A stretch of 64,000 nt of DNA from IMG/VR virus record IMGVR_UViG_3300025276_000020; one strand, given 5' to 3'. Shown here piece after piece: positions 2,490-57,427 of this stretch (position 1 is its first letter; every line of letters begins with the position of its first letter). Under the pieces are notes generated by a model. That model was not told the origin of the DNA. It made no database searches and saw nothing but the letters and a program-made list of their open reading frames with translations. Source of the stretch: a virus. The position numbers were made by a program, and so were the translations under genes.

Positions 2490-2587
2490 ACCTTTATAAA
2501 ATTATAACACCTTTGATATGAGGAGTAAGTAAAACTAAAAAAATATGTTCGTTGTCGGGAGAGATCGAACAAAACGGAGTAATACAT

Positions 2588-9029: not shown

Positions 9030-10238
9030 ATGATAGATACAAGCAAGTTCCAGGACGTGATAACAGGCTTAAAAAATAGCGGTAATTACAGAGTCTTTAA
9101 TGACATAATACGTGAGAGAGGTGAATTCCCTCAAGCATTATATTACGGTCCATATAACATTAAGAACATAGTTAATTGGTGTAGTAATGACTATCTGGGC
9201 ATGGGACAACACAAAGTAGTATTAGATGCAATGCACACGGCTTTAGATCAGACTGGTGCAGGTAGTGGCGGTACTAGAAATATTGCAGGTACTAGCCACT
9301 ATCATGTTGCATTAGAGCGTGAACTTGCCGAATTGCACAATAAAGAAAGCGCACTGTTGTATACTAGTGCTTATGTGGCAAACGAGTGGACGTTAATTGC
9401 TCTCAGTAAGATTATTCCAGATATAGAATTTGTGAGCGACAGTAAGAACCACGCAAGTCTTATTCAAGGCATGAAACACAGTGGTGCACCCAAGCACGTA
9501 TTTGAACACAATAACATGGAACAGTTGCGTGAAGTCCTATCTAATATAAAGGGTACTCCTTGCATTGTGTTTGAAAGCGTGTATAGTATGGATGGATATG
9601 TAAGCTTAATCGAAGAGATACTGGATATAGCTGAAGAATATAAAGCTATGACGTATATAGATGAAGTACATGCTGTTGGATTATATGGAAATACTGGCGC
9701 AGGATTCACTGAGTTATTGGGAGTGCAACATAGAGTTGACTTCATCAATGGAACGCTAGGTAAGGCTTTTGGTTGTCAAGGAGGATACATATCTGGCGAT
9801 GCCATTGCTATCGATGCTATACGCAGTATTGCGAGTGGATTCATATTTACAACAAGTCTAAGCCCAGTGATGTGTGCAGGTGCATTGAGTGCTATCAAGT
9901 ATCTTAAGAGCAGTAATGGTGTGGAGCTGAGAGCTATTCACCAAGAACGTGCAAAGAAACTAAAAGACGTACTCAAGGAAAGAGATATAGATGTGCTAGA
10001 GAATGAAACTCATATCGTGCCTGTTATGATAGGAGATGCTGTAAGATGTAAGTCTGTCAGCGATGAACTTATTACACGTTACGATATATATGTACAACCT
10101 ATAAATTATCCGACAGTATCTATGGGAACTGAAAGACTTAGATTTGCGCCTACTCCACTACACACAGATGCTATGATGCTCGATTTAGCTGAAAAACTCA
10201 AAGAAATAATAGGATTTAGAAAGTCAAACTTTTTATAA
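9030..10238 (+). CDS. hemA: 5-aminolevulinate synthase (PLP-dependent, C4 pathway)
   Basis: WCSNDYLGMGQH, GAGSGGTRNI, NHASLIQG, ESVYSMDG, DEVHAVGLYG, GTLGKAFG, FIFTTSL, YVQPINYPTV, ERLRFAP. Confidence 0.95.
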   Translation: MIDTSKFQDVITGLKNSGNYRVFNDIIRERGEFPQALYYGPYNIKNIVNWCSNDYLGMGQHKVVLDAMHTALDQTGAGSGGTRNIAGTSHYHVALERELAELHNKESALLYTSAYVANEWTLIALSKIIPDIEFVSDSKNHASLIQGMKHSGAPKHVFEHNNMEQLREVLSNIKGTPCIVFESVYSMDGYVSLIEEILDIAEEYKAMTYIDEVHAVGLYGNTGAGFTELLGVQHRVDFINGTLGKAFGCQGGYISGDAIAIDAIRSIASGFIFTTSLSPVMCAGALSAIKYLKSSNGVELRAIHQERAKKLKDVLKERDIDVLENETHIVPVMIGDAVRCKSVSDELITRYDIYVQPINYPTVSMGTERLRFAPTPLHTDAMMLDLAEKLKEIIGFRKSNFL

Positions 10239-10274: not shown

Positions 10275-10979
10275 GTGTTAACGTTTGAAAATTATCTTAA
10301 AGAAGAGTTTGTTACCCTTAAGAGGGAACTAGAAGAAGGTGTCAACGATCCAGCTATTTTTAAAGCAGTGTTCTTAGCCGGTGGACCTGGCTCTGGTAAA
10401 TCATTCATTGTTGGTAAGACTGGACTCACATCGCTTGGATTCAAAGTTGTCAACTCTGATGACGCATTCGAGAAAGCAATGGCTAAAGCAGGTATGGAGA
10501 TGGACCCAGAGAATATCTTCTCTGTGCAAGGTCAAGAGTTACGTGGTAAAGCAAAAGTCTTAACAGGCGTTAAGCAAGCAATGTATATTAAAGGTCGTTT
10601 AGGGTTAGTCATCGATGGTACTGGTAAAGATACTCAGAAGTTGATCAAACAGGCAAAATCGTTAAAATCTATTGGGTATGACACTAGTATGATCTTTGTT
10701 AACACCGATCTAGCTACAGCGCAGTCACGTAATAAAGCACGTAAACGTACACTACCTGAAGATGAAGTAGAGCAGTATTGGACAACAGTTCAGAAAAACA
10801 TTGGTGCATTCCAGACGTTTTTCGGCAAGCAAAAGTTTACTGTAGTAGATAACTCTGAAGGTAAAGACTACGGCGTAGAGACTCTACGAGCTTATAAAGA
10901 AGTCACTAAATTCGTGAAAGCAAAGCCTGATAATTCCAGTGCTAAAGCATGGATTAAGGCACAACGAAAAACAAGGTAA
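10275..10979 (+). CDS. P-loop kinase, zeta-toxin/AAA_33-like
   Basis: Walker A GGPGSGKS, VNSDD, LVIDGTG, R-N-x-x-R-x-R lid. Confidence 0.8.
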   Translation: MLTFENYLKEEFVTLKRELEEGVNDPAIFKAVFLAGGPGSGKSFIVGKTGLTSLGFKVVNSDDAFEKAMAKAGMEMDPENIFSVQGQELRGKAKVLTGVKQAMYIKGRLGLVIDGTGKDTQKLIKQAKSLKSIGYDTSMIFVNTDLATAQSRNKARKRTLPEDEVEQYWTTVQKNIGAFQTFFGKQKFTVVDNSEGKDYGVETLRAYKEVTKFVKAKPDNSSAKAWIKAQRKTR

Positions 10980-11178: not shown

Positions 11179-11715
11179 TTGAATTTAAAAGAACTAACGT
11201 GGGATAACCACAGAGATGCTGAACGCAAGAAGTTTGCATCAATCCTAATGAGTGGCAAGATAGACCCAGCCCTCTATCATCGATACCTCGTAAATCAATT
11301 TTATAACTACGTTTCACTAGAGTACAAGTTACCTCTAACGGAACTTGGTCTGACCGATATTGCCAGGTCTCAATTGATAGGAGAAGATATTCGTGAACTC
11401 GAAGACTTATATGGATTTGATAGAATGGATATTACAATCGCACAATGTACTAAGGATTATACCGAGTACTGCGAGAACTTATATGAGAATGATAAAGATG
11501 GTCTAGTGGCACATATGTATGTCCGACACTTTGGAGATATGTACGGCGGAGCTATGATCGCTAAACGTATTCCTGGTAGTGGCAAGATGTACCAGTTTGA
11601 GAAAGTAGAAGAACTAAAAACGAATGTTCGTAATCTGTTGAGTGACAGTATGGCACCAGAGGCTAATAGATGTTTTAAATTTGCAATAAGGCTATTTGAG
11701 GAGTTATTACAATGA
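11179..11715 (+). CDS. hemO: heme oxygenase (biliverdin-producing)
   Basis: LKELT..NH..AE proximal His; AHMYVRHFGDMYGG distal helix. Confidence 0.92.
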   Translation: MNLKELTWDNHRDAERKKFASILMSGKIDPALYHRYLVNQFYNYVSLEYKLPLTELGLTDIARSQLIGEDIRELEDLYGFDRMDITIAQCTKDYTEYCENLYENDKDGLVAHMYVRHFGDMYGGAMIAKRIPGSGKMYQFEKVEELKTNVRNLLSDSMAPEANRCFKFAIRLFEELLQ

Positions 11716-11864
11716 AAGAAAGTAAGAGCGAACTTGACGCAACATACGAGAAAGTCATGGAAGCATTCGATAGGCGAGAACATCGCCAAAAACGAATGAA
11801 CCTGATGATCTTAGGTCTATATGCAGTAATAGTGATTACTATGTTTGTGGGAGCATGGTTATGA
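11712..11864 (+). CDS. 50-aa C-terminally anchored membrane peptide (not in ORF track)
   Basis: MKESKSELDA...LMILGLYAVIVITMFVGAWL*; ATGA overlaps with both hemO and pcyX. Confidence 0.65.
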   Translation: MKESKSELDATYEKVMEAFDRREHRQKRMNLMILGLYAVIVITMFVGAWL

Positions 11865-12544
11865 GTATAGTATGGAAAAGTCTCATCGATCTACAAGATC
11901 ACTTCATAGAGGAGTTTTCTGGCAGTGGAATCGAAGTACAAGAACCTGGTATGGAGCAGTTCAACAAACCTGGTTGGGTAAATAGAGTTTGGACATCCCA
12001 AGACTATCGTAGGGCACACGTTGATGTTGTCGATATGCGTGAAGAGAAGAAGATGTGGATGATGCACGTCTGTGTGTTTCCTCACACCGATAGTGATGCA
12101 CCTATCTATGGATTTGATGTAATAGCTGGTGCTAATAAGATGACTGGCGCATTCCACGATTTCTCTGCTACGACTAATATAGAACACCCAATGATTGATT
12201 GGTTTGGTACGGTCGCATCTGCACTATCATGGAAGAGAGAGCGAGAGTTACCTGAATGGGCTAAAGCTATATTCACTGATCATATGATTGCCGCAGGTAT
12301 GGTTAAAGATCCTATAGAGATTGCACAGATAACTGGCACGGCAATGGAAACACTATCATATTATCTCAAAGAAATCGGTAACTATAACGGATACTCTTCA
12401 CAAGAATTGGGCATAGCCACACAGAATAACTATGCACATTATCAGAAACAGAATCCTCACACACCTAACGTAATGAAGAGCCTAGGCATCGATCCTGATG
12501 ACGTAGACTTATTCATTCAGAAGTGTCTTTTTCCAGAGCTTTAA
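11861..12544 (+). CDS. pcyX: ferredoxin-dependent bilin reductase, PcyX-type
   Basis: WVNRVW, RRAHVDVVD, HVCVFP, PIYGFDVIAG, GAFHDFS, ERELPEWAKAIF, QKQNPHTP, LFP; adjacent to heme oxygenase. Confidence 0.88.
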   Translation: MSIVWKSLIDLQDHFIEEFSGSGIEVQEPGMEQFNKPGWVNRVWTSQDYRRAHVDVVDMREEKKMWMMHVCVFPHTDSDAPIYGFDVIAGANKMTGAFHDFSATTNIEHPMIDWFGTVASALSWKRERELPEWAKAIFTDHMIAAGMVKDPIEIAQITGTAMETLSYYLKEIGNYNGYSSQELGIATQNNYAHYQKQNPHTPNVMKSLGIDPDDVDLFIQKCLFPEL

Positions 12545-12630
12545 TAGTCTTTCGTATACATAGAAAGTAGGGTAATTCTGCCCTACATTTTGTGAGCGAC
12601 AGGGTAAAGCTGTCAAACAAGGAGAAAGAT

Positions 12631-12945
12631 ATGAAATCATTACTAGTTGTAATACTAGCAGTACTGTCTACGAGCGCATTCGCCGCACCATACGTAGAAT
12701 ATTCGAATCAACAACGATACACAGACCTGGACTACTCAGGTAAGTACAATCATGTACGCATTGGATACAAAGCAGACAATGGAATATACCTCGAAGCAGG
12801 TAGAGATCAAGACGGCAACGCTTTTGAGACTGGATATAGTTTCAATTTTAACGAGCGACTGAGCATTAATGGTAAGTGGGAAGGTTCCAATACCGATAAG
12901 CTGAGACACACTGTTGAGACTGAGATCAGGTACACATTTAAGTAA
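12631..12945 (+). CDS. small outer-membrane beta-barrel-like protein
   Basis: Signal peptide ending AFA; alternating aromatic strands; C-terminal EIRYTFK beta-signal. Confidence 0.7.
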   Translation: MKSLLVVILAVLSTSAFAAPYVEYSNQQRYTDLDYSGKYNHVRIGYKADNGIYLEAGRDQDGNAFETGYSFNFNERLSINGKWEGSNTDKLRHTVETEIRYTFK

Positions 12946-21260: not shown

Positions 21261-21851
21261 TTATCCTATTTTTCTTTTTGAGTCTGACCAGACTTGAGTC
21301 TTCGATGCACCCTGGAATCTTTCTAGTGGTAAGAACAGTGCAACGTCCCATTCTGAGGGATATATGTACATGAACTTGCTACGTACCTGTGTAGTAAGAT
21401 AGCGTTTAATGCATGGTTGAAATTCTTTATACTTAGCCGCACTCTCTAACATCTGATAGCTAATTTTAAGTCTAGTAGACTCATCAAATCGAGTGTTGCT
21501 TGCCGTGTCATATAGTGCGTCCATCAACTTAGCACGTAATGGCAAAGGAAGATAGTGCATATTTAATCCGTAGAACCCACCCTTTACTTTCTTAAAAGGA
21601 AATACTAACGGGAATCTATCAAAATATGGTAGAGTTGCTTTACCCTTTGCGTCATAATAATACATGTACATCTGTCCAACGAGAGGTCTAGCTGTTAAAC
21701 GATCTGCATCGCCTTTTAACAGTTTACCATCGTTGATTCTCTTATAGTCACTAGCACTTTTTCTATACCAGTCACGTGCCTTTGCTGTACGAGCTGGTAT
21801 TTGTCCAGCCCGAACACCTTTGGTGAGAATTTCGTCAAACAGAATTGCCAT
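21261..21851 (-). CDS. 2: DNA end protector protein gp2
   Basis: YDAKGK.TLPYFDRFPL, GLNMHYLP..LR, CIKRYL, W..ALFLP. Confidence 0.92.
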   Translation of the reverse strand: MAILFDEILTKGVRAGQIPARTAKARDWYRKSASDYKRINDGKLLKGDADRLTARPLVGQMYMYYYDAKGKATLPYFDRFPLVFPFKKVKGGFYGLNMHYLPLPLRAKLMDALYDTASNTRFDESTRLKISYQMLESAAKYKEFQPCIKRYLTTQVRSKFMYIYPSEWDVALFLPLERFQGASKTQVWSDSKRKIG

Positions 21852-22279
21852 TAGAGTACAACCACACCTTCGTTAATTAAACGCTCACGGTTGACTAGGT
21901 GAGCCGCATCGACATCATCTTTACTACCACCAAAATATGCAACAGCATGACCCTCATCAATAAGAACCTCTGTTACTTTACGACCATCTTCTAGTATAAA
22001 ATCGCCTAGAATACGACCAAATTTGCCCTTCATGTCTTCGCCCTTCTTAGACACTTGAGTCTTTAGAATAGAGCCATTCTTTAATAATTCTTTTAGCTTG
22101 GCTTTAGACGCTAGACCGAACTTCTTCTCGACTTTATCACGTGTCCGTGACTCAGGAGTATCGATGCCCATAATTCTAACACGCTCTTTTCTCAGCCAAA
22201 CGCCAAACCCTAGATCGATGTCTACATCTACTGTATCACCGTCTATTACTCTTACTACTTTACATTTATATTCATACAT
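21851..22279 (-). CDS. thermonuclease (SNase)-like nuclease
   Basis: VIDGDTVD, RVRIMGIDTPESRT, GKFGRILG. Confidence 0.88.
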   Translation of the reverse strand: MYEYKCKVVRVIDGDTVDVDIDLGFGVWLRKERVRIMGIDTPESRTRDKVEKKFGLASKAKLKELLKNGSILKTQVSKKGEDMKGKFGRILGDFILEDGRKVTEVLIDEGHAVAYFGGSKDDVDAAHLVNRERLINEGVVVL

Positions 22280-22299
22280 ATTGTTGTCCTTTAACTTAA

Positions 22300-22743
22300 T
22301 TATTTTATCCCTAAATGATCTTCATGCATTATCTGCCAGATGAATCCATGATCTTTACAATACTCTTCTGCCGCCGCCCATTTCGCTTGGTTAACACCCC
22401 AAGTCTTTACTTCATTAATATATCTTTTAGTAGGCTTCTTACCTCTCTGAACTGTGGGTGGTACAGTTTGATACTTAGGTTTGACTTCTATTAAAATCTT
22501 TTCTTTCTTCTTACTTCTATTTATCTGTTCCACATAGAAGTCTGGGAAATATCTGTGCCATCTCCCATCAATAGGACTTTTATACGGTATAACAATTTCT
22601 TCACTACACCACTTAATAACGTGTGGATGTTTGTCTAAATAAGACATAAGCTTCAATTCCCAATGCGATCTGTAAATCACATTAGTTGGATCACCTAGAT
22701 ACTTATTTGGATTTCTAGGTCTAAAACTTCCCTGATACGCCAT
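22300..22743 (-). CDS. 4: head completion nuclease gp4
   Basis: KYLGDPTNVIYRS.WE, SEE..IPY.SP.D, YFPDF, IEVKP, N.AKW.AA. Confidence 0.93.
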   Translation of the reverse strand: MAYQGSFRPRNPNKYLGDPTNVIYRSHWELKLMSYLDKHPHVIKWCSEEIVIPYKSPIDGRWHRYFPDFYVEQINRSKKKEKILIEVKPKYQTVPPTVQRGKKPTKRYINEVKTWGVNQAKWAAAEEYCKDHGFIWQIMHEDHLGIK

Positions 22744-47330: not shown

Positions 47331-50300
47331 ATGTCAAGTATAACAAATGTTAATAATAATGCCAGCGTAGTAAACGTAGGAAGAACAACTCCGGTATCAC
47401 CGGGAGTTCAACCAGCGGCCAAATCTATTCCTGTCGTAGTCGCATCTGATCAGGTAGCAATTCCTGTAGAAGAGCAAAACAAAGTACAGTCTGAAGTAGC
47501 ACTGTCGCTTCTAGGTATTCCACGTGCTGAAGTCGCTTTAGGTATCTTTGCAGACGTTAACACATATGATGTTAACCCAACAGAGTGGTCATCTAGTCCT
47601 CAATATCACATTACTGGTTACGGTATTAAGCATCTTCCAAACGAAGCTGGTGCATTAGTAGAAGCTCCTAGAAATAAGACATCAGTCTTGACCTCTAAGC
47701 GTTTCTTCAGATATCAGCCTGGTCGTGTATCAGCCGCAACATTCGGCGTTAAGAGTACTACGAGTTCAGCCAACTTCTGTCAGAATCCGTCTATCAAAAA
47801 GTTTGGAATCTATGATAACTTTGATGGATACTTCTGGGAAACTAGAAACGATTCTCAAGAAGATAACTTCTCTGTAGTAAGACGCTCACAATCAATGATT
47901 AAAGCTCCTACTTCACCAACAGGTATTGCAGGTCAATACTTAAAAGGCGGATCACCTGGGAACGACACATTAGGCACAACACAGAACGATGACTATAGAG
48001 TTATCGGTCAAGGTCAGAAAGAAACTGTTACAGAAAGCACAGTTCTCGTAAAAGACAGAAAACTAATCACAGATAATAGATTTTCAATTGTCGATACCGC
48101 ACTCGCAGCCGCAGTATCAGCTTACAGTACTACGGGCAATGTTAATGTCACATCGCCTAAAAATGGTACCACTGTAAACGGATACACTATTACATCAGGA
48201 AGCTATACTGCAAGTGGAAACTTCTATGCTGACCTAGCAGTATCGATTAACACTGTTACCAATGCTCCTGATATTACAGCCGCACAAGTTGAGCTAAAGT
48301 GTAAACGTGACATGGATTACTGGATAGAAAACTATCTACTAGATATGGAATACGGTGGAACTGCACATACTAATCTAAACGTGAGTAACTATGCAACTGG
48401 TTTGTTCCCACAGATTGCTACATTTGAAAAAGCTATTCACGCACAACTTAAAAGTGTTCTAGATGGATATGCTGGAATTACTTCTGCAGGTGATACTAAA
48501 ATCACAGCACTTACTACTATCACTCAAACAGCATTTAACCGTAATAATGGCCAGTCTGTACTAGTACCTTCTGTGCCCACTTCTGGAGCATATGGAACAA
48601 GAAACAAACTAGAAACGGTCTTCGCAGTCAAGAAAGAGTATTGGGCATATGTTGTATCTGTATCAACAGGTGCCAATGCCGCTATCACATACACAGTTCC
48701 AGCTGATGGATTGAGTTCTGGACTTACTGCACTTGATATTAAATATAAGTGTCAGCGAGACGTTGGATACATCATCGATGGATACTCAAATGACATATCT
48801 GGTGGAGGTGATGCTGAGACAAAGTACAACATGACTATGTACTTCAAGAATGGTCGACCTTCTTCTTCTACAAATGGTGCAGGAATGTCTATCTATTCAC
48901 AGACAGCCGGCGGTGTTTTAGCGGAGATCGAAAGACACACGCACCTTAGAGATAAGATTAAAGCAGATTTAGTAACATATGGCTTTGCTACAACAACAGC
49001 AGAATACAAAAAGCTTGTAATTCTTGCAGACAGAGTTATATCTAACTTCTCTATCGAGAATCAGCAAAGCATGGATTTAGGAGAAAAAGGATTTGCAGGT
49101 AACTTAGTTGCTTTACGTGACGGACTAGTTGTAACTCACGCCGCAGTCTTTGACCCTACACTTCTCAAGACTGCTGAAAGCATCGTTACAGTTGCTATTG
49201 GATCAAATGCAGAAGCTAATCTGGGCACACCTAATTCGTTCAAGCTATCTAAAGGACACGTAACATTCGGACAACATGTTAGAGTTAAGACTTGGGCAAA
49301 TGCAGAATCAGTAGCGGCTTGCGGTACATTAGTGCCAGGCACAGTATACAAAGTTGTTAAAGTATATGGTCCTAAAGGTAACGAGTTTACGTTGCAGGAT
49401 GAAAGTGGTACCGCACAGGCATTCACTGTAGCTCAAGCAACAGCGGCTGGCACAATGTATCTTGAGACAGTCGTACCGTTCATCTTCCCTAAAGTGTATC
49501 AGCCTGCAACAGGAGCAGGATATTGGGATAACTTTACGCCTAACTTAGATATTAACTCAGACGTATTCCCTAAAGGAATGGTATTCCCATACATGTATGC
49601 AAGTGACTATAATCTTCTCAGCGATGATGTATCTTCTCTGAAAGTTGGATACATCAATACTGCATTAGATTTATCCAATGGCACAAACCTTAATACAGTG
49701 TGTACACAAATGGATACTGTAAACTTTGAGCCAGAATATATCAACTGGATTAAGAATAATGTTAAGCCAGAGTACTACGGCGTTTATGATTATCGTGTTC
49801 CTAGATCACGCTTCAGTCATGACACTTTAGATGGAAAGAGTTCTGCCGCAGGCACATCTAAGAATAGAGTATACAGTGATCTCGCAACTGGAGAAAATGG
49901 TATTGCTCGACCTGGTCAGAGATATACAATAGGAACATCTCCAAACGAAGTGGCACAGTTCACAGATAGTCTTTACAGCTTTGACTTCACTAAAGTTACC
50001 ATGCTTAAGATTGAATTCTCTTGGTACGGTGCTGTTGGTGCATTGTTCTTAGCATATGTTCCAGTAGCGAACGGAGAAGCAAGATGGGTAAGAGTACATC
50101 ATCTTCGTGCATCGAATCAGTTGAAAATTGCCTCTTTAGGTAATGCGACACTTCCTATTACGTACACGACATTTGGTGGAGGAGATGCTAAGTCTCTAGG
50201 TGATGGAGAAGATGCTAACTTTACTGATAGAGGATACGGAGCCGATTCACACTCTATCGTTAAGTATGGTGCTTCTTACTATATTGATGGTGGAGATAGA

Positions 50301-51404
50301 GGTACTGTTCGTCTATACAGTCATAATAACGAAGATACTGCAACTGCATACGGTAAGCAATGGACTATTAAGAACGGTAGTTATGTATCAAGTGGTAATA
50401 AAGTTGCAATCAACTCTACATCACTTGAGGCAGGTAACCCTACAGTTAACGTTGACCCTAGATTCTTTATGGGCGCAAGACTTAAAACATCTAACAAGAC
50501 TGACCAAAACATTAAAGTCGTTTGGGCAGATTCTACTCATGTGTACTTGTCTTCAGCACCTAGCTCAACTACTAGTCTTAAGTTACTTGTAGATCGTGCT
50601 AACTCCACATTCGGTCTAGAGACTAAGAAAGTTATTCTAAGCACACGAGAGTCTAATGCTGTACGTAACAGAGTACAAGTTTATCCTACTAAACTGTCTA
50701 CATCTAACTTAGGCGACAATCCAGTTAGAATGAGATTTAAGAAAACTCCATTATTCCAAACAGACACAGTTTACTTAGGAAGCATTTCTACTTCAGCAGA
50801 ATACACGATTACGGCAGCAAATCTTCCGTTAGCTGTGACAGAATCGGGTGGAGCAGGTACGTTCATGGATAATGCAGACAGCCTATATGGATGGTTTCAA
50901 GCTACAGTCGGTGTTGACAACATCACAGTCTTTGGTAGATTATATAAAGAAGCGGATCTATATTACTATGAACTTCTCGAATCTTACAATGCAGAGGTTA
51001 TTATTAAGGTAGGAATATTCTTACCAGATGTAAGATTTAGCGCAGATGGTGTATATGCAACCGGTACTGCTTATAGCACAAGCGGAAGTAACTATTTGTT
51101 ACGCCCTCCACTAGCGCAATCAACGGTAACTAAAGTAACATCAGAGAAAGAAGGATTAAGTTCAGTAAAAATTGCTAACGATACTGTAGTTCCTATTCCA
51201 GGAACTGGTATAAACGTAGCGACTATATACTTACAGGCGGGAACAGAACAACTTGACCTTGCACCTTATTTCGATTACAATAAAGAGTATCTATCATTCC
51301 CGTTGACAGATCAAGCAGATAGTCTTTATTTTACAGTAGACTCCGATACAGCGGCGAATACTTCAGATGAAATAAGTTTGGGTTGTACGTGGGAAGAGCA
51401 GTAA
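47331..51404 (+). CDS. large virion protein with two phycobiliprotein-like CxRD repeats (paralog of 51408)
   Basis: FRYQPGR, KIEFSWYGA and YGASYYIDGGD blocks shared with the next gene; KCKRDMDYWI and KCQRDVGYII inserts. Confidence 0.7.
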   Translation: MSSITNVNNNASVVNVGRTTPVSPGVQPAAKSIPVVVASDQVAIPVEEQNKVQSEVALSLLGIPRAEVALGIFADVNTYDVNPTEWSSSPQYHITGYGIKHLPNEAGALVEAPRNKTSVLTSKRFFRYQPGRVSAATFGVKSTTSSANFCQNPSIKKFGIYDNFDGYFWETRNDSQEDNFSVVRRSQSMIKAPTSPTGIAGQYLKGGSPGNDTLGTTQNDDYRVIGQGQKETVTESTVLVKDRKLITDNRFSIVDTALAAAVSAYSTTGNVNVTSPKNGTTVNGYTITSGSYTASGNFYADLAVSINTVTNAPDITAAQVELKCKRDMDYWIENYLLDMEYGGTAHTNLNVSNYATGLFPQIATFEKAIHAQLKSVLDGYAGITSAGDTKITALTTITQTAFNRNNGQSVLVPSVPTSGAYGTRNKLETVFAVKKEYWAYVVSVSTGANAAITYTVPADGLSSGLTALDIKYKCQRDVGYIIDGYSNDISGGGDAETKYNMTMYFKNGRPSSSTNGAGMSIYSQTAGGVLAEIERHTHLRDKIKADLVTYGFATTTAEYKKLVILADRVISNFSIENQQSMDLGEKGFAGNLVALRDGLVVTHAAVFDPTLLKTAESIVTVAIGSNAEANLGTPNSFKLSKGHVTFGQHVRVKTWANAESVAACGTLVPGTVYKVVKVYGPKGNEFTLQDESGTAQAFTVAQATAAGTMYLETVVPFIFPKVYQPATGAGYWDNFTPNLDINSDVFPKGMVFPYMYASDYNLLSDDVSSLKVGYINTALDLSNGTNLNTVCTQMDTVNFEPEYINWIKNNVKPEYYGVYDYRVPRSRFSHDTLDGKSSAAGTSKNRVYSDLATGENGIARPGQRYTIGTSPNEVAQFTDSLYSFDFTKVTMLKIEFSWYGAVGALFLAYVPVANGEARWVRVHHLRASNQLKIASLGNATLPITYTTFGGGDAKSLGDGEDANFTDRGYGADSHSIVKYGASYYIDGGDRGTVRLYSHNNEDTATAYGKQWTIKNGSYVSSGNKVAINSTSLEAGNPTVNVDPRFFMGARLKTSNKTDQNIKVVWADSTHVYLSSAPSSTTSLKLLVDRANSTFGLETKKVILSTRESNAVRNRVQVYPTKLSTSNLGDNPVRMRFKKTPLFQTDTVYLGSISTSAEYTITAANLPLAVTESGGAGTFMDNADSLYGWFQATVGVDNITVFGRLYKEADLYYYELLESYNAEVIIKVGIFLPDVRFSADGVYATGTAYSTSGSNYLLRPPLAQSTVTKVTSEKEGLSSVKIANDTVVPIPGTGINVATIYLQAGTEQLDLAPYFDYNKEYLSFPLTDQADSLYFTVDSDTAANTSDEISLGCTWEEQ

Positions 51405-51407
51405 CTC

Positions 51408-54400
51408 ATGCCAAAGCAGATAAAACTTGGACTGGATAAAGTACCAGCTCCAGTTACGAAGCAGTTTACCCAGTTAATAGATATTGAAGGCAACCTGCTT
51501 TACGATGCGGCTGGTAATCCTGTAATAACTGAAGACGAAGCTACGCTAGGGTCATTCTCGACCTCAGCTGGCTCGACTTCTGTCTATATTAATAATAGGG
51601 ATAATAATCCTATTATTTCTATACCTATAGCAGAACAATTCTCTGAAACGTCAGAGGTGAGTAGTTCACTACTAGGTATTCCAAGAGCAGAAGAACAACT
51701 CAGTCTATTCTCAGATGTTTCAACGTATGGCTTAGACGAAGATAACTGGAACTATTATACATTTAGCGGTGCTACTTCACCAGGAGAATGGTACAATAAA
51801 GAAAATCCTATATTCGGCAGTAGACAAAATCCTGAATTCTATGAAGGATCAGAAGAGCAAGCATTATATCTAAAATCTTTTCCATCACAATATGCCTTTC
51901 CAGGAAGTACAATAGCAGAGAACTCGGCTACTCCATCAGAGACGATGAAGCAGTACATGAACTTCATTGCTATGGGTCGATACCTTTACGGATATTTTTA
52001 TCCAATCAATCCGGTATTCGCAGAAAGCAATTTTTTAAATGCCAATATTGAAGTTGTGAATTCTACAGGCACAACAGTTACTACTAGCACAAGTGGATCA
52101 TTCTTAACTATCGCACTAACTTTTAATGGAGACGGTAACTTCTTTGATGTCGAATACGGAAGTGACTTTCAAGATTCTTGTAATCAAATAGAAAGATTTA
52201 CATATATATTTGGAAGAATAGTTGACGGAGATGCATCATTTCCAGATTTAGTTGGTTCTGCTACAACAGATTTTAAACTTACCGCAGAATTTCCTGCAAT
52301 ACGTAGCTTCTTATCTACAAGATGTAGACCTGGTGGAAGTTCTACATCAGAAAAATTTGCGATTCTTCAGAGTAATAAGACCTTTAGGTATCAGCCAGGT
52401 AGAGCTAGTGGGTTCACATTCGGAGTTAGACAGCAGACAGATACGGCTTCTAGCGCAAGCTTTATTGAGTGGGGTTGCTCAAACGACACAGATGAGTACA
52501 TGTTTCAGTTAAGAGGATCTAGCTTTAATATTATTCGAAGAAGTACCATTAAAATGCCAGACGCATTACTAGTGCGACAGGGACTAGAAGTAACTGATCA
52601 GGGTTCTTCAGCAGTTCAGCCTAAAGGAGTTGGCGTTGGCGATGCTCTATGGGAAACAACTATACCTAGAACGAAGTTCAATGGCGATAGCATGTTGGGC
52701 AGTGGTAAATCTGGGTACATTCTATCGTTTGAAGACGTTACTATGTACAAGATCGAATTCTCTTGGTATGGTGCTATTGGTGCCAAGTTCTACGCATATG
52801 CTCCTGCTGATGTAGGTGAAGCAAGATGGATACTTATGCACACATTCGTAATTGAGAATGGATTGGGCAAACCAGTGCTAAATAATCCAGACTTTAAATT
52901 TAAGTATCTAATATATACTGCTGATACCTCAACTCTCAAATACCCTATATATCTTTACAAGTACGGAAGCAGTTATTATGTTGACGGCGGTGATGAAGGT
53001 ACTATTAATCTAACAAGTGTGACAGCAGATAGTAAAGAGTTCACGCAAAGAACCCCTATCATAGGAGTTTTACCTAAACAAGAAATTAGAAATACTGATG
53101 GAGTTGGGATAAAAAACTTTAAGAAAGCTTACCCAACAACACTATCAGTATCAAGCGATATAGCGAGTAGAGTAGATATAGAAACTATATCAGGATCTCC
53201 AGACGGAGTGCATTATAGTTTTGCACCTTCTCTTCATAACGGAGTACATGCATTATCTAGAAACTTGAATTTCAAGTTTAATGGCACATCTGGACTAACC
53301 TTAGACCTTCCGACTGGAAATACTGTATCAGGTGGTAGTTTTGTCGTAGGCACATTATATAAAATAACAAGTCTTGGAAACACAACTCAAGCACAGTGGA
53401 ATACTGCCGCTGGCACAAGTGGTGTAGCGTATACAGTTAACGGTACATACAATTGCTTTACTGCCGCAACAACTGGAACAGGAACAGGAACAGTTGTCGA
53501 TAATATATTCGCAGTTACAGATGATGGTGGCAAGATTATTGCAGATGGAATATATAACGCATATGTTCAATACAATGAGAACGACAAAAGTAGTGCTAAT
53601 ATTAGACGAAAGAATGGATACAATCTAACTTCACCCAACTCTGCAGGCTCTAAGATCAGTAAATCGATGAAGCTCGATGGCACTGTTATTGATACGTCTA
53701 CTTCTCCTACGTTTACCGGAAAGGTAACAAACTTTCATTCGATCTCCACTTCGACAGTACCCATTCAATCTAATAATTTTAGAGTACATTGGCTAGATCC
53801 AAACAGTTACTCAGCCATCACTGGTAGACATTTTACAGATTACGCTATATGCATAGGAACTAATTTAGGATTTGTAGACGGTACGGATAGTAATAAGCTT
53901 AAGTTCACTAAAGACGATAGTAGTACTGTACCATTTAGCTTCGATGACGTGCTTTCAGTTAAAGGATCTCAGGTTGGCACAGCAATAAACTATTCTACTA
54001 AGGCTGAATACGTTGAGTGGGATCCATCCTACGGAGATAGATTTGACGTTGATGTTCGTTTGCCTGCGCCATCAGGTGCTGACACCGGAACTATCAGTGC
54101 CCTCAAGGGCGAAGTCAGAGTAGTTACTTATGATGTCGCCTCAGTAGAAGCAGGAACAGGAACCTTTGCAGGTAAATTTAAAATAACTTTTAGTAGTTCT
54201 GCTCCCTCTGCATCTATGTTTCCAGTAGACTCAAACGGAGATGTTATCGCAGGAGCATCTGAAGTGGGCGTAAACGGTATAGGACTAGGATTATATTACG
54301 TGACTGCTCCGGCATTCAACTCTAGTAACCAATATTTCGTCTACGTTGATCAGAATCCAAATACGTTTGGAGGTACAAGAGACATAACAGCCACTGGTGT

Positions 54401-54938
54401 ACAAACTAAAACAATTACTCTAACTGATGATTGGCAACTGGCGGACAGATTTGCGTCTGCACAGTTTACTGTATCGAAGGCAGTTAAGTTTAACGCACAG
54501 CCATTATATCTCACTATTGCAATGCACGATGACGCTAAAATAAATAGCATTGTCGTTGAAGAAATCACAGAAGATAATGTACAAGTAAAGACTCCTAAGT
54601 TTATTAAAGGCGATGAGTGTCCTAACTTGTCTATTGTAGCAAGTGGACTATCTAGTAACATATTATCTCCATCTGCTTTTCAGTCAGACGATAGAACTTC
54701 TAGTATCAGGTTCGATACACAGACATTGAATCCTCTTAGACCAGGAGTTAAGATATACTCTTTCTACATTGCGCCTAATAAGCCAGCACAGTTCGACCTA
54801 TCTAACATATTCGGCAGAGACAGAAAAGGATTAGCTAGAGGTTTGCTAAATAATCAAGCACTATTCTTAACTGCATCAGCAGTTGACGGAGTATCTACGG
54901 GTAATATTGAAATGACTCTTACGGCGAAGGAACAATAA
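51408..54938 (+). CDS. large virion protein (paralog of 47331)
   Basis: SLLGIPRAE, FRYQPGR, KIEFSWYGA, YGSSYYVDGGD; both paralogs end -EQ. Confidence 0.7.
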   Translation: MPKQIKLGLDKVPAPVTKQFTQLIDIEGNLLYDAAGNPVITEDEATLGSFSTSAGSTSVYINNRDNNPIISIPIAEQFSETSEVSSSLLGIPRAEEQLSLFSDVSTYGLDEDNWNYYTFSGATSPGEWYNKENPIFGSRQNPEFYEGSEEQALYLKSFPSQYAFPGSTIAENSATPSETMKQYMNFIAMGRYLYGYFYPINPVFAESNFLNANIEVVNSTGTTVTTSTSGSFLTIALTFNGDGNFFDVEYGSDFQDSCNQIERFTYIFGRIVDGDASFPDLVGSATTDFKLTAEFPAIRSFLSTRCRPGGSSTSEKFAILQSNKTFRYQPGRASGFTFGVRQQTDTASSASFIEWGCSNDTDEYMFQLRGSSFNIIRRSTIKMPDALLVRQGLEVTDQGSSAVQPKGVGVGDALWETTIPRTKFNGDSMLGSGKSGYILSFEDVTMYKIEFSWYGAIGAKFYAYAPADVGEARWILMHTFVIENGLGKPVLNNPDFKFKYLIYTADTSTLKYPIYLYKYGSSYYVDGGDEGTINLTSVTADSKEFTQRTPIIGVLPKQEIRNTDGVGIKNFKKAYPTTLSVSSDIASRVDIETISGSPDGVHYSFAPSLHNGVHALSRNLNFKFNGTSGLTLDLPTGNTVSGGSFVVGTLYKITSLGNTTQAQWNTAAGTSGVAYTVNGTYNCFTAATTGTGTGTVVDNIFAVTDDGGKIIADGIYNAYVQYNENDKSSANIRRKNGYNLTSPNSAGSKISKSMKLDGTVIDTSTSPTFTGKVTNFHSISTSTVPIQSNNFRVHWLDPNSYSAITGRHFTDYAICIGTNLGFVDGTDSNKLKFTKDDSSTVPFSFDDVLSVKGSQVGTAINYSTKAEYVEWDPSYGDRFDVDVRLPAPSGADTGTISALKGEVRVVTYDVASVEAGTGTFAGKFKITFSSSAPSASMFPVDSNGDVIAGASEVGVNGIGLGLYYVTAPAFNSSNQYFVYVDQNPNTFGGTRDITATGVQTKTITLTDDWQLADRFASAQFTVSKAVKFNAQPLYLTIAMHDDAKINSIVVEEITEDNVQVKTPKFIKGDECPNLSIVASGLSSNILSPSAFQSDDRTSSIRFDTQTLNPLRPGVKIYSFYIAPNKPAQFDLSNIFGRDRKGLARGLLNNQALFLTASAVDGVSTGNIEMTLTAKEQ

Positions 54939-57427
54939 TGGCTAGTTTTAGAGGATTAAATGTCCAGAAAGCGATGAACGATGTCGATAATAAGGCACAA
55001 TCGCTAGTCAATCTAGGTCTAGACCAACGAGATTTGGCTTTAATAAGTGGAATTGCTGCCGCTGGAATAACGACTAACGAACTACACACTCTAGCAGGTT
55101 TAGTAGTAGATCAGAAGAAATCTCTGTATTCTTTAGGCGAATCTGCTGAAACTCTTGGAGGCATATTAACGGGCTTGCAAGATATTCAAGTACCTCAGGC
55201 ATATAATATACAGTACGATGATCAAGTGCGAGCCTCTGCAATCAAGTATAACTATTTAGATTTTGCCCGTTATGGCGCACTTGATGAAACACAAAGCGCA
55301 GACATATCAACATCACGAGTATCTTCTTGGTCAACTATTGGCACAACAATACTATACGGCGGTGAGATTAAAGTCACTGGCTCACAGATCGAGCTATCTT
55401 CTTTGAAAGCAACGACGGCTCCAGTAACGAAACTATTCAGATCAGAAATACCTACACATACGTTAAAATTAAATATTAATGGTTCACCGCAAACTTTTCT
55501 TGCGATGAAAGGCATACCGATGGAACTTCAAGGGTTCTTTAGAAACGCTAATTTTAGTCATGCAGTTACGGCAGTGACCGACAGTCTTGGTCAAGTCCCA
55601 GGCACATGGAGAATAGTTAATAACGATAACGGACAAACATATAACTCAGGCGATGGCACTGCGGCACCAAACAACGGTAACCTTGGAGTTGGAGCATTGG
55701 GTAGTCCAGCAACTTATGCATTCAGAGATAGTTCTAATAGATCGAGAACAGTACAGTTCTACTATGATCCATCTAAGATACTTGAACTACGTACACCTGG
55801 AATAAACATCACTAACTGGACAACATCTAAGTTGCCCGCTTTGCGGAGACTAGACATAAACAATAATGACTTATACGTTCTACCCAGTTTCAGAGGAGAT
55901 GCCACCAGTAAAGACGGCATATTGACTCCTGGAGGTCTAGCTCCAGTTCTAGAGCAAATAGTATTAACTGCTAACAACTTATCGAGAGCAATACACGCTG
56001 ATGGCACCCAAATTGTTGCCACTCATCAGCTAAACACTTTACCCACAACTCTTACACATTTGACTATGAATGGAGTCTTTTCTGATAGCACAGATATCGA
56101 TCTTTTAGACTATCAAAATCTATCTGTTCTCAATTTTCACACGTACTATTCACGTAATGCACAGAGAAGAATGACTGGAGGCACAGTATCTCCAAAAGTT
56201 TACACTAATGTTGCGGCAGGAAAAGGCATAGCATCTTACAGCATGTATCATCAGCCGTATTCCCAGTTGGCTGACGGAGTATGCACAAGTAATAATTTAG
56301 CATATCTATACTTTCCTTGGTGTGGTACTAGTGCTAAAGAAGGCGGTGGTGATATCACTATTGCCAGCCCAGTGATAGGCAGTTTTCTGTCTTATGGTAA
56401 TGGTCATAACGTAGTCGATATGAATAGTAAGAGTAGTCTGATCACTTACATTCAACAATATTCGAGTGGCGGTTCAACTGCCGCTCAAAAAGCTATAGGT
56501 AGTAAGTTCGCTGGATGTTCATCATTAGGACAGCTAAACTTTTACTCATCTGCTGTTACTGGCAATATAGAGACTGCGTTTTCATCACTACAATCTTTAA
56601 CTTATCTGGAACTTAGATGGACAGGGGTCAGTGGAAGACTAGATGATAATAGTTTTGCGAATACCAATTCACTACAATATCTGCTTCTTGCAGGATCTGG
56701 TTATAACACTTCAGACTTTTTCGGCACACAAGATTCGATTGACAATAACTCTGGTAGCGGAGAAGTATTTAAAAACACACTCGATCTTAGGTGGATGTAT
56801 CTTTATAATAATGGTAGCGCCGCAGGCAAGTTGCCAGACTTCAGCTCTAACGTTAATCTAACTGGATTATATTTTCACAGCACAGGAATTAATGGACCAC
56901 TTCAAACCTTTGCGAATAACACAAGTCTCTACTATTTAAGAATAAGTAATTGTCAAGTTAGCGGTACTGTTCCTGCATTCACAGGCAACGGTCTTAAGTA
57001 CATATACTTGTACTCTAATCAGCTTGCCGGTCAAGTTCCTAAATTTACTACTCCATATCTCTACCAGTTATACTTACAGTACAACAATCTTACTGGCAAT
57101 ATTCCAGACCTGTCTGGGTGTACTCGATTGCAGAGAGTTTATCTAAATAATAATAGTATAAATGGATATACTCCAGGTGCGTTGCAGTACAACTCATCAC
57201 TGTCTGTCATAGATTTCAGTAATAATCAGTTATCTAATACTGCGGGGTCAAATATTATAGCGGATCTATATGAGAACCTAAGTCTTAATCCCAGAACTGG
57301 TGTATCTGTTAACTTACTGGGTAATTCAATGACTAGGGAAGGCATACAAAACGATGGCACAACAGGAGACACAAGCACAGCTAATAAACTAAGCTTCTTG
57401 GAAAACTTCTGGACTATTCTAATATAA
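54938..57427 (+). CDS. leucine-rich repeat protein
   Basis: LxxLxLxxNxLxGxIP-type repeats, e.g. LYQLYLQYNNLTGNIPDLS. Confidence 0.85.
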   Translation: MASFRGLNVQKAMNDVDNKAQSLVNLGLDQRDLALISGIAAAGITTNELHTLAGLVVDQKKSLYSLGESAETLGGILTGLQDIQVPQAYNIQYDDQVRASAIKYNYLDFARYGALDETQSADISTSRVSSWSTIGTTILYGGEIKVTGSQIELSSLKATTAPVTKLFRSEIPTHTLKLNINGSPQTFLAMKGIPMELQGFFRNANFSHAVTAVTDSLGQVPGTWRIVNNDNGQTYNSGDGTAAPNNGNLGVGALGSPATYAFRDSSNRSRTVQFYYDPSKILELRTPGINITNWTTSKLPALRRLDINNNDLYVLPSFRGDATSKDGILTPGGLAPVLEQIVLTANNLSRAIHADGTQIVATHQLNTLPTTLTHLTMNGVFSDSTDIDLLDYQNLSVLNFHTYYSRNAQRRMTGGTVSPKVYTNVAAGKGIASYSMYHQPYSQLADGVCTSNNLAYLYFPWCGTSAKEGGGDITIASPVIGSFLSYGNGHNVVDMNSKSSLITYIQQYSSGGSTAAQKAIGSKFAGCSSLGQLNFYSSAVTGNIETAFSSLQSLTYLELRWTGVSGRLDDNSFANTNSLQYLLLAGSGYNTSDFFGTQDSIDNNSGSGEVFKNTLDLRWMYLYNNGSAAGKLPDFSSNVNLTGLYFHSTGINGPLQTFANNTSLYYLRISNCQVSGTVPAFTGNGLKYIYLYSNQLAGQVPKFTTPYLYQLYLQYNNLTGNIPDLSGCTRLQRVYLNNNSINGYTPGALQYNSSLSVIDFSNNQLSNTAGSNIIADLYENLSLNPRTGVSVNLLGNSMTREGIQNDGTTGDTSTANKLSFLENFWTILI

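What the first reader, a model, noticed from the sequence alone, without database searches (positions are those of the whole stretch)
48297..48812. Two phycobiliprotein-like chromophore-binding motifs inside a putative virion protein: candidate bilin-decorated phage particle
Seen: the 1357-aa late protein 47331..51404 has KCKRDMDYWIENYLLDMEYGGT (Cys324, nt 48297) and KCQRDVGYIIDGYSNDISGGGD (Cys474, nt 48747), exactly 150 aa apart. Both lie in a helical-looking insert absent from its paralog 51408..54938. Known: the alpha-phycocyanin chromophore helix reads K-C84-A-R86-D87-I-G-Y-Y-L-...-G102-G103-T; Cys84 forms the thioether to the bilin and Arg86/Asp87 contact it. Both phage motifs align to this without gaps (K, C, R, D, hydrophobe, Y, GG in register), and 150 aa is about one globin-fold biliprotein domain. 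Inference: these are tandem phycobiliprotein-like domains that accept the phycoerythrobilin made by the phage's HemO/PcyX. To my knowledge the acceptor of PcyX pigment in phages of non-cyanobacterial hosts is unknown. Possible roles are a light-sensing, photoprotective or antioxidant virion appendage. No bilin lyase gene is visible in this window.
Basis: partly seen in the sequence, partly recalled or inferred. Interest (0 to 1): 0.95.

Follow-up and report, generated by a model that had tools for sequence, protein, structure and literature searches.

The report
Phycobiliprotein-like domains in phage virion protein
A structural protein of an uncultured marine T4-like phage carries two domains related to the pigment-carrying proteins of cyanobacterial antennae, with the pigment-attachment residues intact, and the same phage encodes the enzymes that make such a pigment, so its particles may carry a bilin pigment, which nobody has yet tested.

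Summary
ORF 47331..51404 (1357 aa) has KCKRD (Cys324) and KCQRD (Cys474), 150 residues apart, in an insert that its paralog 51408..54938 lacks.

The resemblance to phycobiliproteins is real homology, not chance:
- Two profiles built from relatives hit almost only phycobiliproteins among all PDB sequences (best E 5e-6). CxRD aligns on Cys84-Arg86-Asp87.
- The AlphaFold model of domain 2 is a globin fold whose best match is allophycocyanin (Z 12.1).
- Cys, Arg and Asp are kept in 97-99.9% of 928 domain copies.

The domain is a widespread repeat, with up to 31 copies in giant phage fibre proteins. I also found it in cultured cyanophages, including S-PM2.

The window also encodes 5-aminolevulinate synthase, heme oxygenase and a true PcyX. 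Of 21 PcyX-bearing viral contigs of 40 kb or more, 12 carry the domain on the same fragment. Pelagiphage Mosig has PcyX but not the domain.

Bilin binding is plausible (about 0.5) but untested, and no lyase gene is present. This scan has already reported the same domain family on many other phage DNAs. I found no paper describing it.

The parts
47331..51404 (+). P0001, a 1357-aa virion structural protein (phrog_1645 scaffold; homologue of cyanophage S-TIM5 gp120) in the baseplate/tail-fibre gene module
   Evidence: ORF and translation. phrog_1645 'virion structural protein' E 9e-25. tblastn to S-TIM5-group virion structural proteins at 40% identity. Upstream genes are baseplate wedge, hub and tail-fibre families.
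48168..48548 (+). Phycobiliprotein-like globin domain 1 (aa 280-406) with Cys324 (codon 48300-48302)
   Evidence: Matches the repeat profile A2, which was built without it, at positions 8-140 with E 5.6e-9. The domain-1 columns of profile A1 align to C-phycocyanin alpha residues 38-105. Helices are predicted at pLDDT 84-96.
48297..48362 (+). Motif 1, KCKRDMDYWIENYLLDMEYGGT (helix E-like; Cys324, Arg326, Asp327)
   Evidence: C, R and D are invariant in 25 homologous segments that were not chosen by motif.
48603..49070 (+). Phycobiliprotein-like globin domain 2 (aa 425-580) with Cys474 (codon 48750-48752)
   Evidence: Profile hit. In the AlphaFold models, VIA-align's best match is allophycocyanin 8or7_A (Z 12.1, rmsd 2.9, 121 aa; Z 10.3 for the single-domain model).
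48747..48812 (+). Motif 2, KCQRDVGYIIDGYSNDISGGGD (Cys474, Arg476, Asp477)
47454..47915 (+). N-terminal scaffold block shared with the paralog (aa 42-195)
   Evidence: BLASTP to 51408..54938.
49974..50345 (+). Central scaffold block shared with the paralog (aa 882-1005; FSWYGAVGA...YYIDGGD)
   Evidence: BLASTP 39% identity, E 4e-20. This is the best stretch of the phrog_1645 match.
51408..54938 (+). Paralog (1176 aa) with the same scaffold but without the globin domains
9030..10238 (+). 5-aminolevulinate synthase (vAlaS)
   Evidence: TIGR01821 at 556.8 bits (cut-off 338.55). PDB 7x98_A E 1e-130.
11179..11715 (+). Heme oxygenase (HemO)
   Evidence: PF01126 E 4.7e-17. It accompanies PcyX in 78 of 80 related loci.
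11855..12544 (+). Ferredoxin-dependent bilin reductase of the PcyX type (expected product phycoerythrobilin)
   Evidence: PF05996. PDB 5owg_A PcyX E 4e-67, against PcyA at 2.7e-13. 48.5% identity to the Pelagibacter phage Mosig enzyme.

Best explanation
P0001 is a baseplate- or fibre-associated virion protein. Its S-TIM5-type scaffold has acquired an insert with two tandem globin-fold domains. These domains are remote homologues of phycobiliproteins and other bilin-binding globins and keep the K-C-x-R-D bilin site.

The most likely mechanism runs as follows. During late infection the phage's AlaS, HemO and PcyX raise tetrapyrrole flux and make phycoerythrobilin. One bilin then becomes thioether-linked to Cys324 and one to Cys474, held by Arg326/Asp327 and Arg476/Asp477. 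Attachment probably needs no lyase, as in BBAG globins. The protein is finally built into the virion carrying pigment.

Shown: the homology, the fold, the motif conservation, the biosynthetic genes, and their co-occurrence with the domain.

Inferred: bilin attachment, lyase independence, and any downstream role. Candidate roles are fold stabilisation, light absorption, or light-dependent behaviour of the fibre.
For: 1. Sequence.
- A profile of the region (A1, 25 segments not chosen by motif) searched against all PDB sequences returns phycobiliproteins. The best is C-phycocyanin alpha, E 5.4e-6, over residues 38-105, with CxRD on Cys84-Arg86-Asp87 and no gaps from K83 to G103.
- An independent profile of 141 repeat units gives the same result: E 1.1e-4, and 34 of the 35 hits are phycobiliproteins.
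- Pfam PF00502 scores 44.8 bits (cut-off 22.2) on relative P0077.

2. Fold. Model residues 145-299 best match allophycocyanin (Z 12.1), the ApcE bilin domain (Z 11.4-11.5) and phycoerythrin (Z 10.2-10.3), followed by other globins. The single-domain model agrees.

3. Conservation.
- Over 928 domain hits in 139 proteins, Cys is kept in 98.9%, Arg in 96.8%, Asp in 99.9%, and a further Asp at +14 in 99.2%.
- 115 of 141 units have a single Cys, so an intradomain disulfide is excluded for most.

4. Pigment supply. AlaS, HemO and PcyX are all in this window.

5. Co-occurrence.
- Of contigs seeded on PcyX, 14 of 38 (30 kb or more) and 12 of 21 (40 kb or more) carry the domain 13-38 kb away, although they are only 9-41% complete.
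- In the window's own lineage, 6 of the 7 contigs that reach 35 kb or more upstream have the reductase; five of those six carry the CxRD insert (L073 does not).
- The complete 364-kb genome G052 has both.

6. Distribution. Among 50,697 cultured phage records the domain was found only in cyanophage or marine records, 416 in all. These are phages with access to bilins.

7. Lyase link. In S-PM2, Syn1 and S-CAM3 the lyase homologue cpeT lies 0.7-1.4 kb upstream of the giant CxRD fibre gene.

8. Precedent. BBAG globins with CXRD attach bilins without lyases (PMC10151467).
Against: - No experiment shows a chromophore on any phage protein.
- P0001 itself gets no PF00502 hit at E 0.1, and only 4 of 141 units reach E 0.01.
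- Foldseek E-values are not significant.
- By structure alone, sensor globins tie with phycobiliproteins in the single-domain model, and Z values near 10-12 are within what helical models can reach by arrangement alone.
- Pelagiphage Mosig has HemO and PcyX but no such domain, so PcyX must have another use at least there.
- Contig L059 has six domains and 42 kb of upstream sequence but no reductase.
- The co-occurrence counts are not corrected for shared ancestry or for the conserved gene order of T4-like genomes.
- No lyase was found in the window or in its relatives.
Confidence: 0.5

Rival explanations
1. The domains are apo structural modules. A phycobiliprotein-type globin was recruited as a rigid helical spacer in phage fibres and no longer binds a chromophore. 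The K-C-x-R-D, Asp+14 and Tyr+30 residues would then be kept for folding, inter-subunit contacts or an inter-chain disulfide.
For: - The domain occurs as 2 to 31 tandem copies in fibre-like giants, as structural repeats do.
- It lacks the X-Y helices of phycobiliproteins; structural alignments start at residue 35.
- Mosig has PcyX without the domain, and L059 has the domain without a reductase in 42 kb of upstream sequence.
- Note e1-5342815 found no pigment-gene link in cyanophages.
- No pigmented phage particle has been reported in the papers searched.
Against: - Near-total conservation of exactly the three bilin-contact residues plus the preceding Lys, over domains only about 15% identical overall, is hard to explain by packing alone.
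- Most units have a single Cys and so no intradomain partner.
- The domain is confined to phages whose host or own genes supply bilins.
- cpeT lies next to the fibre gene in three cyanophage genera.
Confidence: 0.3
2. The pocket binds something other than phage-made PEB. It could be biliverdin, heme or another tetrapyrrole, bound covalently or not. Alternatively the Cys/Arg/Asp/Asp cluster could bind a metal or a host surface ligand during adsorption.
For: - The fold is shared with heme-binding sensor globins and with biliverdin-binding photoglobins (8j2y, 8j2w; Z 8-9).
- BBAG-2 globins are specific for biliverdin (PMC10151467).
- Many carriers of the domain have no reductase on the sequenced fragment: 46 of 50.
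- An extra invariant Asp at +14 has no counterpart in C-phycocyanin alpha, where that position is Cys98.
Against: - Photoglobins and BBAG-2 lack CXRD, whereas the bilin-thioether families have it (PMC10151467).
- The specific sequence hits are to phycobiliproteins only.
- No proximal-His-type conservation is seen among the conserved columns.
Confidence: 0.15
3. The resemblance is chance or convergence: a short helical motif that happens to look like the phycocyanin chromophore helix.
For: Identity to phycobiliproteins is low (10-16%), Foldseek E-values are above 0.2, and P0001 alone finds nothing in the PDB by sequence.
Against: - Two independent profiles give E 5e-6 and 1e-4, with phycobiliproteins filling the hit lists over about 65 aligned residues that include the helix before the motif.
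- PF00502 passes its cut-off on a relative.
- The whole domain superposes on the globin fold, with phycobiliproteins on top.
Confidence: 0.03

Closest known systems
Light-harvesting phycobiliproteins (Pfam PF00502; C-phycocyanin alpha, allophycocyanin, the ApcE bilin domain)
   Same: Globin-type fold. Helices A/B and E align. K83-C84-x-R86-D87 and the GG turn are in register. Domain size is about 125-155 aa.
   Different: There is no X-Y N-terminal hairpin, so no alpha-beta protomer or ring assembly is expected. The domain is embedded in tandem inside a 1357-aa virion protein rather than standing alone. It falls below the Pfam threshold. It has extra invariant Asp(+14) and Tyr(+30). The host is probably not a cyanobacterium. 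Chromophore binding is unproven.
BBAGs, bilin biosynthesis-associated globins of heterotrophic bacteria (Rockwell, Martin and Lagarias 2023, PMC10151467)
   Same: Non-photosynthetic context. CXRD motif (BBAG-1 and BBAG-3). Encoded in genomes that also encode HO and an FDBR. BBAGs attach bilins without lyases, which is the mechanism proposed here.
   Different: BBAGs are small stand-alone cytoplasmic proteins in operons with the FDBR, V4R and Fe-S proteins. Here the domains are parts of a structural protein 35 kb from the cassette. No direct sequence comparison with BBAGs could be made.
Giant tail-fibre proteins of T4-like cyanophages (S-PM2 p091 and the 3779-aa T4-GC734 protein; Syn1_032; S-CAM3 gp237)
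   Same: They carry the same CxRD globin repeat: at least 9 copies in S-PM2, and 416 cultured records match. They lie in the baseplate/fibre module and are virion proteins.
   Different: They have many more copies in proteins of 3000-4000 aa on a different scaffold. Their hosts supply bilins, and cpeT lies just upstream. The window's phage instead brings AlaS, HemO and PcyX and has no cpeT.
Cyanophage S-TIM5 gp120 and its paralogs (phrog_1645 virion structural proteins)
   Same: The scaffold is the same, with 40% identity over the shared parts, and the genes form a similar tandem paralog array.
   Different: S-TIM5 and the complete cyanophage contig G023 lack the globin insert altogether.

Membership tests
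Phycobiliprotein family (Pfam PF00502) | Score above the Pfam gathering threshold | tested here: not met
   P0001 has no hit at E 0.1 and its domain 2 alone has none. Only 4 of 141 single units reach E 0.01. The multi-repeat relative P0077 does pass, with a summed 44.8 bits against a cut-off of 22.2.
Phycobiliprotein family (Pfam PF00502) | Detectable homology to solved phycobiliproteins at profile level | tested here: met
   Profile A1 gives E 5.4e-6 to 1i7y_A and its listed hits are phycobiliproteins. Profile A2 gives E 1.1e-4, with 34 of 35 hits phycobiliproteins.
Phycobiliprotein family (Pfam PF00502) | Globin-like fold (helices A, B, E, F, G, H) | tested here: met
   VIA-align gives 8or7_A Z 12.1, rmsd 2.9 over 121 aa, and 4xxi_A Z 11.4. 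The single-domain model gives Z 10.3. Nearly all top rows are globin-fold proteins.
Phycobiliprotein family (Pfam PF00502) | Chromophore-site residues Cys84, Arg86 and Asp87 on helix E | tested here: met
   They align without gaps, are invariant in 25 homologous segments, and are kept in 97-99.9% of 928 domain copies.
Phycobiliprotein family (Pfam PF00502) | N-terminal X-Y helix hairpin that builds the alpha-beta protomer and (alpha-beta)3 rings | tested here: not met
   Structural and sequence alignments begin at phycobiliprotein residues 33-51. Units of 108-160 aa follow one another directly.
Phycobiliprotein family (Pfam PF00502) | Covalently bound bilin | not testable with these tools
   This needs spectroscopy, a Zn blot or mass spectrometry.
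BBAG bilin-binding globins (PMC10151467) | Globin with a CXRD motif encoded together with a heme oxygenase and an FDBR | tested here: inconclusive
   The motif and the same-genome HemO and PcyX are present, and PcyX contigs often carry the domain. However, the genes are 35 kb apart rather than in one cluster, and no BBAG sequence was on hand for comparison.
BBAG bilin-binding globins (PMC10151467) | Lyase-independent self-attachment of a bilin | not testable with these tools
   Only the absence of CpeT/CpeS-type lyase genes could be checked.
phrog_1645 / S-TIM5 gp120 virion structural protein family | Shared scaffold blocks and position in the structural gene module | tested here: met
   phrog_1645 E 9e-25. 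tblastn to the S-TIM5 group. The paralog comparison. The neighbouring genes.
PcyX bilin reductases (for ORF 11855..12544) | Closer to PcyX than to PcyA or PebS, and paired with hemO | tested here: met
   5owg_A E 4e-67 against PcyA at 2.7e-13. hemO lies directly upstream. The pairing is seen in 78 of 80 related loci.

The most novel reading that the evidence does not exclude
Tailed phages of both cyanobacteria and marine heterotrophs build covalently pigmented virions. Their baseplate and fibre proteins would carry bilins on phycobiliprotein-derived domains. The long-unexplained phage bilin genes (ho1/hemO, pebS, pcyA, pcyX, cpeT, alaS) would then exist at least partly to load these domains, which could make fibre stability or adsorption depend on light.
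Probability: 0.3. Interest if true: 0.95.

Novelty: new variant of a known kind. Interest (0 to 1): 0.78.

Why it matters
The papers I read call the purpose of bilin-synthesis genes in phages 'a mystery' (PMC3037559), and for phages of non-photosynthetic hosts they leave it to future work (PMC11480375).

A phage-encoded protein that is a homologue of the natural bilin acceptors, and that keeps their attachment site, is a concrete and testable target. This window offers a small construct for that test: two domains, about 300 aa, together with the matching HemO and PcyX from the same genome.

If the domains bind pigment, phage particles would be the first known pigmented virions. The origin and spread of phycobiliprotein-type globins would then extend to viruses. 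Light-dependent adsorption of some cyanophages (cited in 10.1101/167650) would gain a candidate mechanism.

If the domains do not bind pigment, this is a striking case of a light-harvesting fold reused as a structural fibre module.

Tried and rejected
- P0001:230-640 searched alone against PDB sequences gave nothing, even at E 10. The signal appears only with profiles.
- Foldseek on the two-domain model gave no significant match. On the single-domain model the list is dominated by phycobiliproteins, but at E 0.25-1.5.
- tblastn of P0001:280-600 against cultured phages gave no match. This first suggested that no cultured phage has the domain, but the canonical repeat protein P0074 then found 416 records, so that idea was dropped.
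I used a degenerate DNA pattern instead.
- No whole genome is held for the window, so the rest of this phage could not be searched for a lyase or ferredoxin.
- The A2 profile against 5.8 billion proteins of 59-289 aa found only 13 fragments of larger proteins and no stand-alone bacterial relative.
- I first took the complete contig G023, which has a reductase but no domain, as a counter-example. It carries psbA and psbD and is a cyanophage of the S-TIM5 type, so it does not bear on PcyX phages. Mosig remains a true counter-example.
- The small beta-barrel ORF 12592..12945 (Phage_OMP) next to pcyX was considered as a possible lyase. It accompanies PcyX in only 2 of 80 loci, so I rejected it.
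- The C/R/D invariance in alignment A2 is circular, because the units were picked by the motif. I replaced it with the count over HMM hits and with alignment A1.
- I ran no complex prediction, RNA search or read mapping, because none would bear on chromophore binding.
Full report
**1. The observation**

ORF 47331..51404 on the + strand translates without stops to 1357 aa (P0001). It contains KCKRDMDYWIENYLLDMEYGGT, starting at nt 48297 with Cys324. It also contains KCQRDVGYIIDGYSNDISGGGD, starting at nt 48747 with Cys474. The two lie exactly 150 residues apart, and the two stretches are internal repeats (40% identity over 40 aa, E 4e-8).

The downstream paralog 51408..54938 shares only scaffold blocks with P0001: aa 42-195 and aa 882-1005 (FSWYGAVGA...YYIDGGD). 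So aa ~200-880 of P0001 is an insert. A six-frame scan of the whole window with a profile of the repeat finds it only in P0001, as two full-length copies at aa 280-406 and aa 425-580. No other ORF over 200 aa contains C-x-R-D.

**2. The phage and the gene module**

The window is a T4-like myovirus. It has a gp59-like helicase loader, gp32, baseplate and tail-tube proteins, gp25, gp5-, gp6-, gp7- and gp8-like wedge and hub proteins, and tail-fibre families just upstream of P0001.

P0001 and its paralog match phrog_1645, 'virion structural protein'. They also match the virion structural proteins of the cyanophage S-TIM5 group at about 40% identity, but only over the scaffold.

In IMG/VR there are 77 related loci. 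Most homologues carry 2, 4 or 6 CxRD domains, while the S-TIM5-like ones carry none.

psbA and psbD are present in S-TIM5, S-PM2 and the S-TIM5-like complete contig G023. They are absent from every contig of the window's own branch, including ones estimated 80% and 67% complete. The window phage is therefore probably not a cyanophage.

**3. What the domains are**

An exhaustive HMMER search with aa 200-880 found 139 relatives. In many of them the CxRD stretch matches 10-21 times. Counting the motif shows up to 31 copies per protein, at periods of 108-175 aa, in proteins of 2000-6400 aa. So this is a repeat domain of giant proteins.

Several lines of evidence tie it to phycobiliproteins:
- Pfam's Phycobilisome family (PF00502) scores 44.8 bits (cut-off 22.2) on one relative and E 2.4e-4 on another.
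- A profile of P0001:280-640 with 24 homologous segments chosen by BLAST, not by motif (A1), searched against all PDB chain sequences, returns phycobiliproteins. The best is C-phycocyanin alpha at E 5.4e-6. The alignment spans residues 38-105 and puts CxRD on Cys84-Arg86-Asp87, with no gap from Lys83 to Gly103.
- A second profile of 141 repeat units (A2) gives E 1.1e-4, and 34 of its 35 hits are phycobiliproteins.
- The AlphaFold model of aa 280-640 (pLDDT 78.9, pTM 0.78) was compared with 48,161 PDB representatives without Foldseek. For aa 424-578 the best matches are far-red allophycocyanin (Z 12.1, rmsd 2.9, 121 aa), the ApcE bilin domain (Z 11.4-11.5) and phycoerythrins (Z 10.2-10.3). Other globin-fold proteins follow.
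- A single-domain model built on the deep alignment gives the same picture. There, sensor globins (pXO2-61 at Z 10.0, a stressosome RsbR-type globin 3zta_A at 9.6) tie with allophycocyanin (10.3) and ApcE (9.6).

There are limits to this evidence:
- Foldseek E-values are not significant.
- P0001 itself does not reach PF00502.
- The alignments start around residue 35 of phycobiliproteins, so the X-Y hairpin that builds alpha-beta protomers is missing.

My reading is that these are true remote homologues of phycobiliprotein-type globins but not ordinary family members.

**4. Conservation of the site**

In A1 the Cys, Arg and Asp of both motifs are invariant. The invariance seen in A2 is circular, because I picked its units by the motif. 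I therefore counted over all 928 domain hits of the profile in 139 proteins:
- Cys in 98.9% of copies.
- Arg in 96.8%.
- Asp in 99.9%.
- A further Asp at +14 in 99.2%.
- Tyr at +30 in 95.6%.

Overall identity between units is only about 15%. In 115 of 141 units the motif Cys is the only Cys.

**5. Pigment supply in the same genome**

- ORF 11179..11715 is a heme oxygenase.
- ORF 11855..12544 is a PcyX. It matches 5owg_A at E 4e-67, against 2.7e-13 for PcyA, and is 48.5% identical to the enzyme of Pelagibacter phage Mosig.
- ORF 9030..10238 is a 5-aminolevulinate synthase (TIGR01821 at 556.8 bits against a cut-off of 338.55; 7x98_A at E 1e-130).

Together these are the alaS-hemO-pcyX set described for aquatic phages. 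The authors of that work list a BBAG-type acceptor only as one possibility and leave the role of these genes to future work (PMC11480375). PcyX makes phycoerythrobilin (same paper).

No CpeT, CpeS or E/F-type lyase family appears in any window ORF scanned. CpeT is also absent from 46 related or PcyX-bearing contigs.

**6.

- Starting from PcyX, I took 80 IMG/VR loci and searched their whole contigs with the domain profile. The domain was present in 14 of 38 contigs of 30 kb or more and in 12 of 21 contigs of 40 kb or more. It lies 13-38 kb from pcyX, in ORFs of 1597-2913 aa, although these contigs are only 9-41% complete.
- In the window's own lineage, the reductase is present in 6 of the 7 contigs that extend 35 kb or more upstream of the P0001 homologue (with coordinates). 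One of these six, L073, lacks the CxRD insert.
- Starting from the domain through a DNA pattern, 4 of 50 fragments (about 11.6 genome equivalents) carry a reductase. These include the one complete genome, 364 kb.

Counter-examples and caveats:
- Mosig has HemO and PcyX but no domain. The positive controls for that search did match.
- Contig L059 has six domains and 42 kb of upstream sequence but no reductase.
- These counts are not corrected for shared ancestry or for the conserved gene order of T4-like genomes. They are suggestive rather than proof.

**7. Cultured carriers**

The canonical repeat protein P0074 finds 416 records among 50,697 cultured phage genomes. By organism name they are 322 Synechococcus, 62 Cyanophage, 22 Prochlorococcus, 9 Marine and 1 uncultured.

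S-PM2 has at least nine copies in two giant fibre genes. In S-PM2, Syn1 and S-CAM3, which belong to three genera, the T-type lyase homologue cpeT lies 0.7-1.4 kb upstream of the giant CxRD 'short tail fiber' gene on the same strand. The role of phage cpeT and of pebS and pcyA is described as unresolved (PMC3037559).

As far as tblastn can see, the domain therefore occurs only in phages whose host makes bilins or that make bilins themselves.

**8. Mechanism and rivals**

My best reading, at about 0.5, is as follows. The phage makes PEB late in infection. PEB becomes thioether-linked to Cys324 and Cys474 without a lyase, as shown for BBAG-1 and BBAG-3 globins that carry the same motif (PMC10151467). 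The pigmented protein is then assembled at the baseplate.

What the pigment would do is open. From general knowledge, PEB lacks the C15=C16 double bond and so cannot photoisomerise as phytochrome chromophores do. For this phage I therefore rank a fold-stabilising or light-absorbing role above a photoswitch. Light-dependent adsorption is known for some cyanophages and has been attributed to possible changes in fibres or receptors (10.1101/167650).

By my own rough estimate, a few dozen chromophores per particle would be invisible to the eye in ordinary preparations. The lack of reports of coloured phage is therefore weak evidence against pigmentation.

The rivals are:
- An apo structural module (0.3).
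- Another ligand, or another use of the Cys/Arg/Asp/Asp cluster (0.15).
- Chance resemblance (0.03).

**9. Novelty**

I found no paper in the held library that describes phycobiliprotein-like domains in phage virion proteins.

This scan has already reported the same domain family on many other phage DNAs. One of those is a T4-like phage with the two pigment enzymes (e1-5363617).

This window adds:
- A minimal two-domain carrier on an S-TIM5-type scaffold, in a probable non-cyanophage that also encodes AlaS, HemO and PcyX.
- A PcyX-seeded co-occurrence count.
- The cpeT adjacency in three cultured genera.

Noticed in passing
window 1228..5313: The phage carries curli-type genes: CsgF (1228..1701), CsgG (1701..2489), two curlin-repeat proteins (2552..3280 and 4321..5313) and a FecR-domain protein (3240..4358). 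In related non-cyanophage contigs, including the complete 364-kb G052, CsgG lies only 2-8 kb from the bilin reductase. It is absent from S-TIM5, S-PM2, Mosig and G023. The reason for this linkage is unknown.
   Followed up: partly
window 9030..10238: This ORF is a 5-aminolevulinate synthase (TIGR01821 at 556.8 bits). It is separated from hemO-pcyX by a zeta-toxin/AAA-type kinase-like ORF (10275..10979). The arrangement is a 'broken' version of the three-gene cassette described in PMC11480375.
   Followed up: yes
window 5664..7700: A CHASE2 sensor domain is fused to an adenylate/guanylate cyclase domain. This phage-encoded membrane signalling protein lies between the curli genes and the tetrapyrrole genes.
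   Followed up: no
window 12592..12945: A small 'cyanophage outer membrane protein-like beta barrel' (PF24653) lies directly downstream of pcyX. It accompanies PcyX in only 2 of 80 related loci.
   Followed up: partly
window 54938..57427: An 829-aa protein with C-terminal leucine-rich repeats (LRR_8, E 1.4e-10) directly follows the two scaffold paralogs. It may be a receptor-binding part of the same appendage.
   Followed up: no
L280 3163..13179 and L281 5953..19268 (Synechococcus phage S-PM2): S-PM2 has at least nine copies of the globin repeat in two giant fibre genes. cpeT and a 2OG-Fe(II) oxygenase gene lie between gp5 and the second of these. The same order (GC730, cpeT, giant CxRD fibre gene) is found in Syn1 and S-CAM3; the 2OG-Fe(II) oxygenase is also present in Syn1, whereas S-CAM3 has a DNA endonuclease V gene in that position.
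   Followed up: partly
loci L001-L077 (IMG/VR homologues of P0001): The number of globin domains in P0001 homologues is always even (2, 4 or 6), which suggests that the unit of duplication is a pair of domains.
   Followed up: no
window 21851..22743 (- strand): A staphylococcal-nuclease-like ORF and a TnsA-like endonuclease ORF sit between the tail-tube and baseplate genes. They may be remnants of a mobile element.
   Followed up: no
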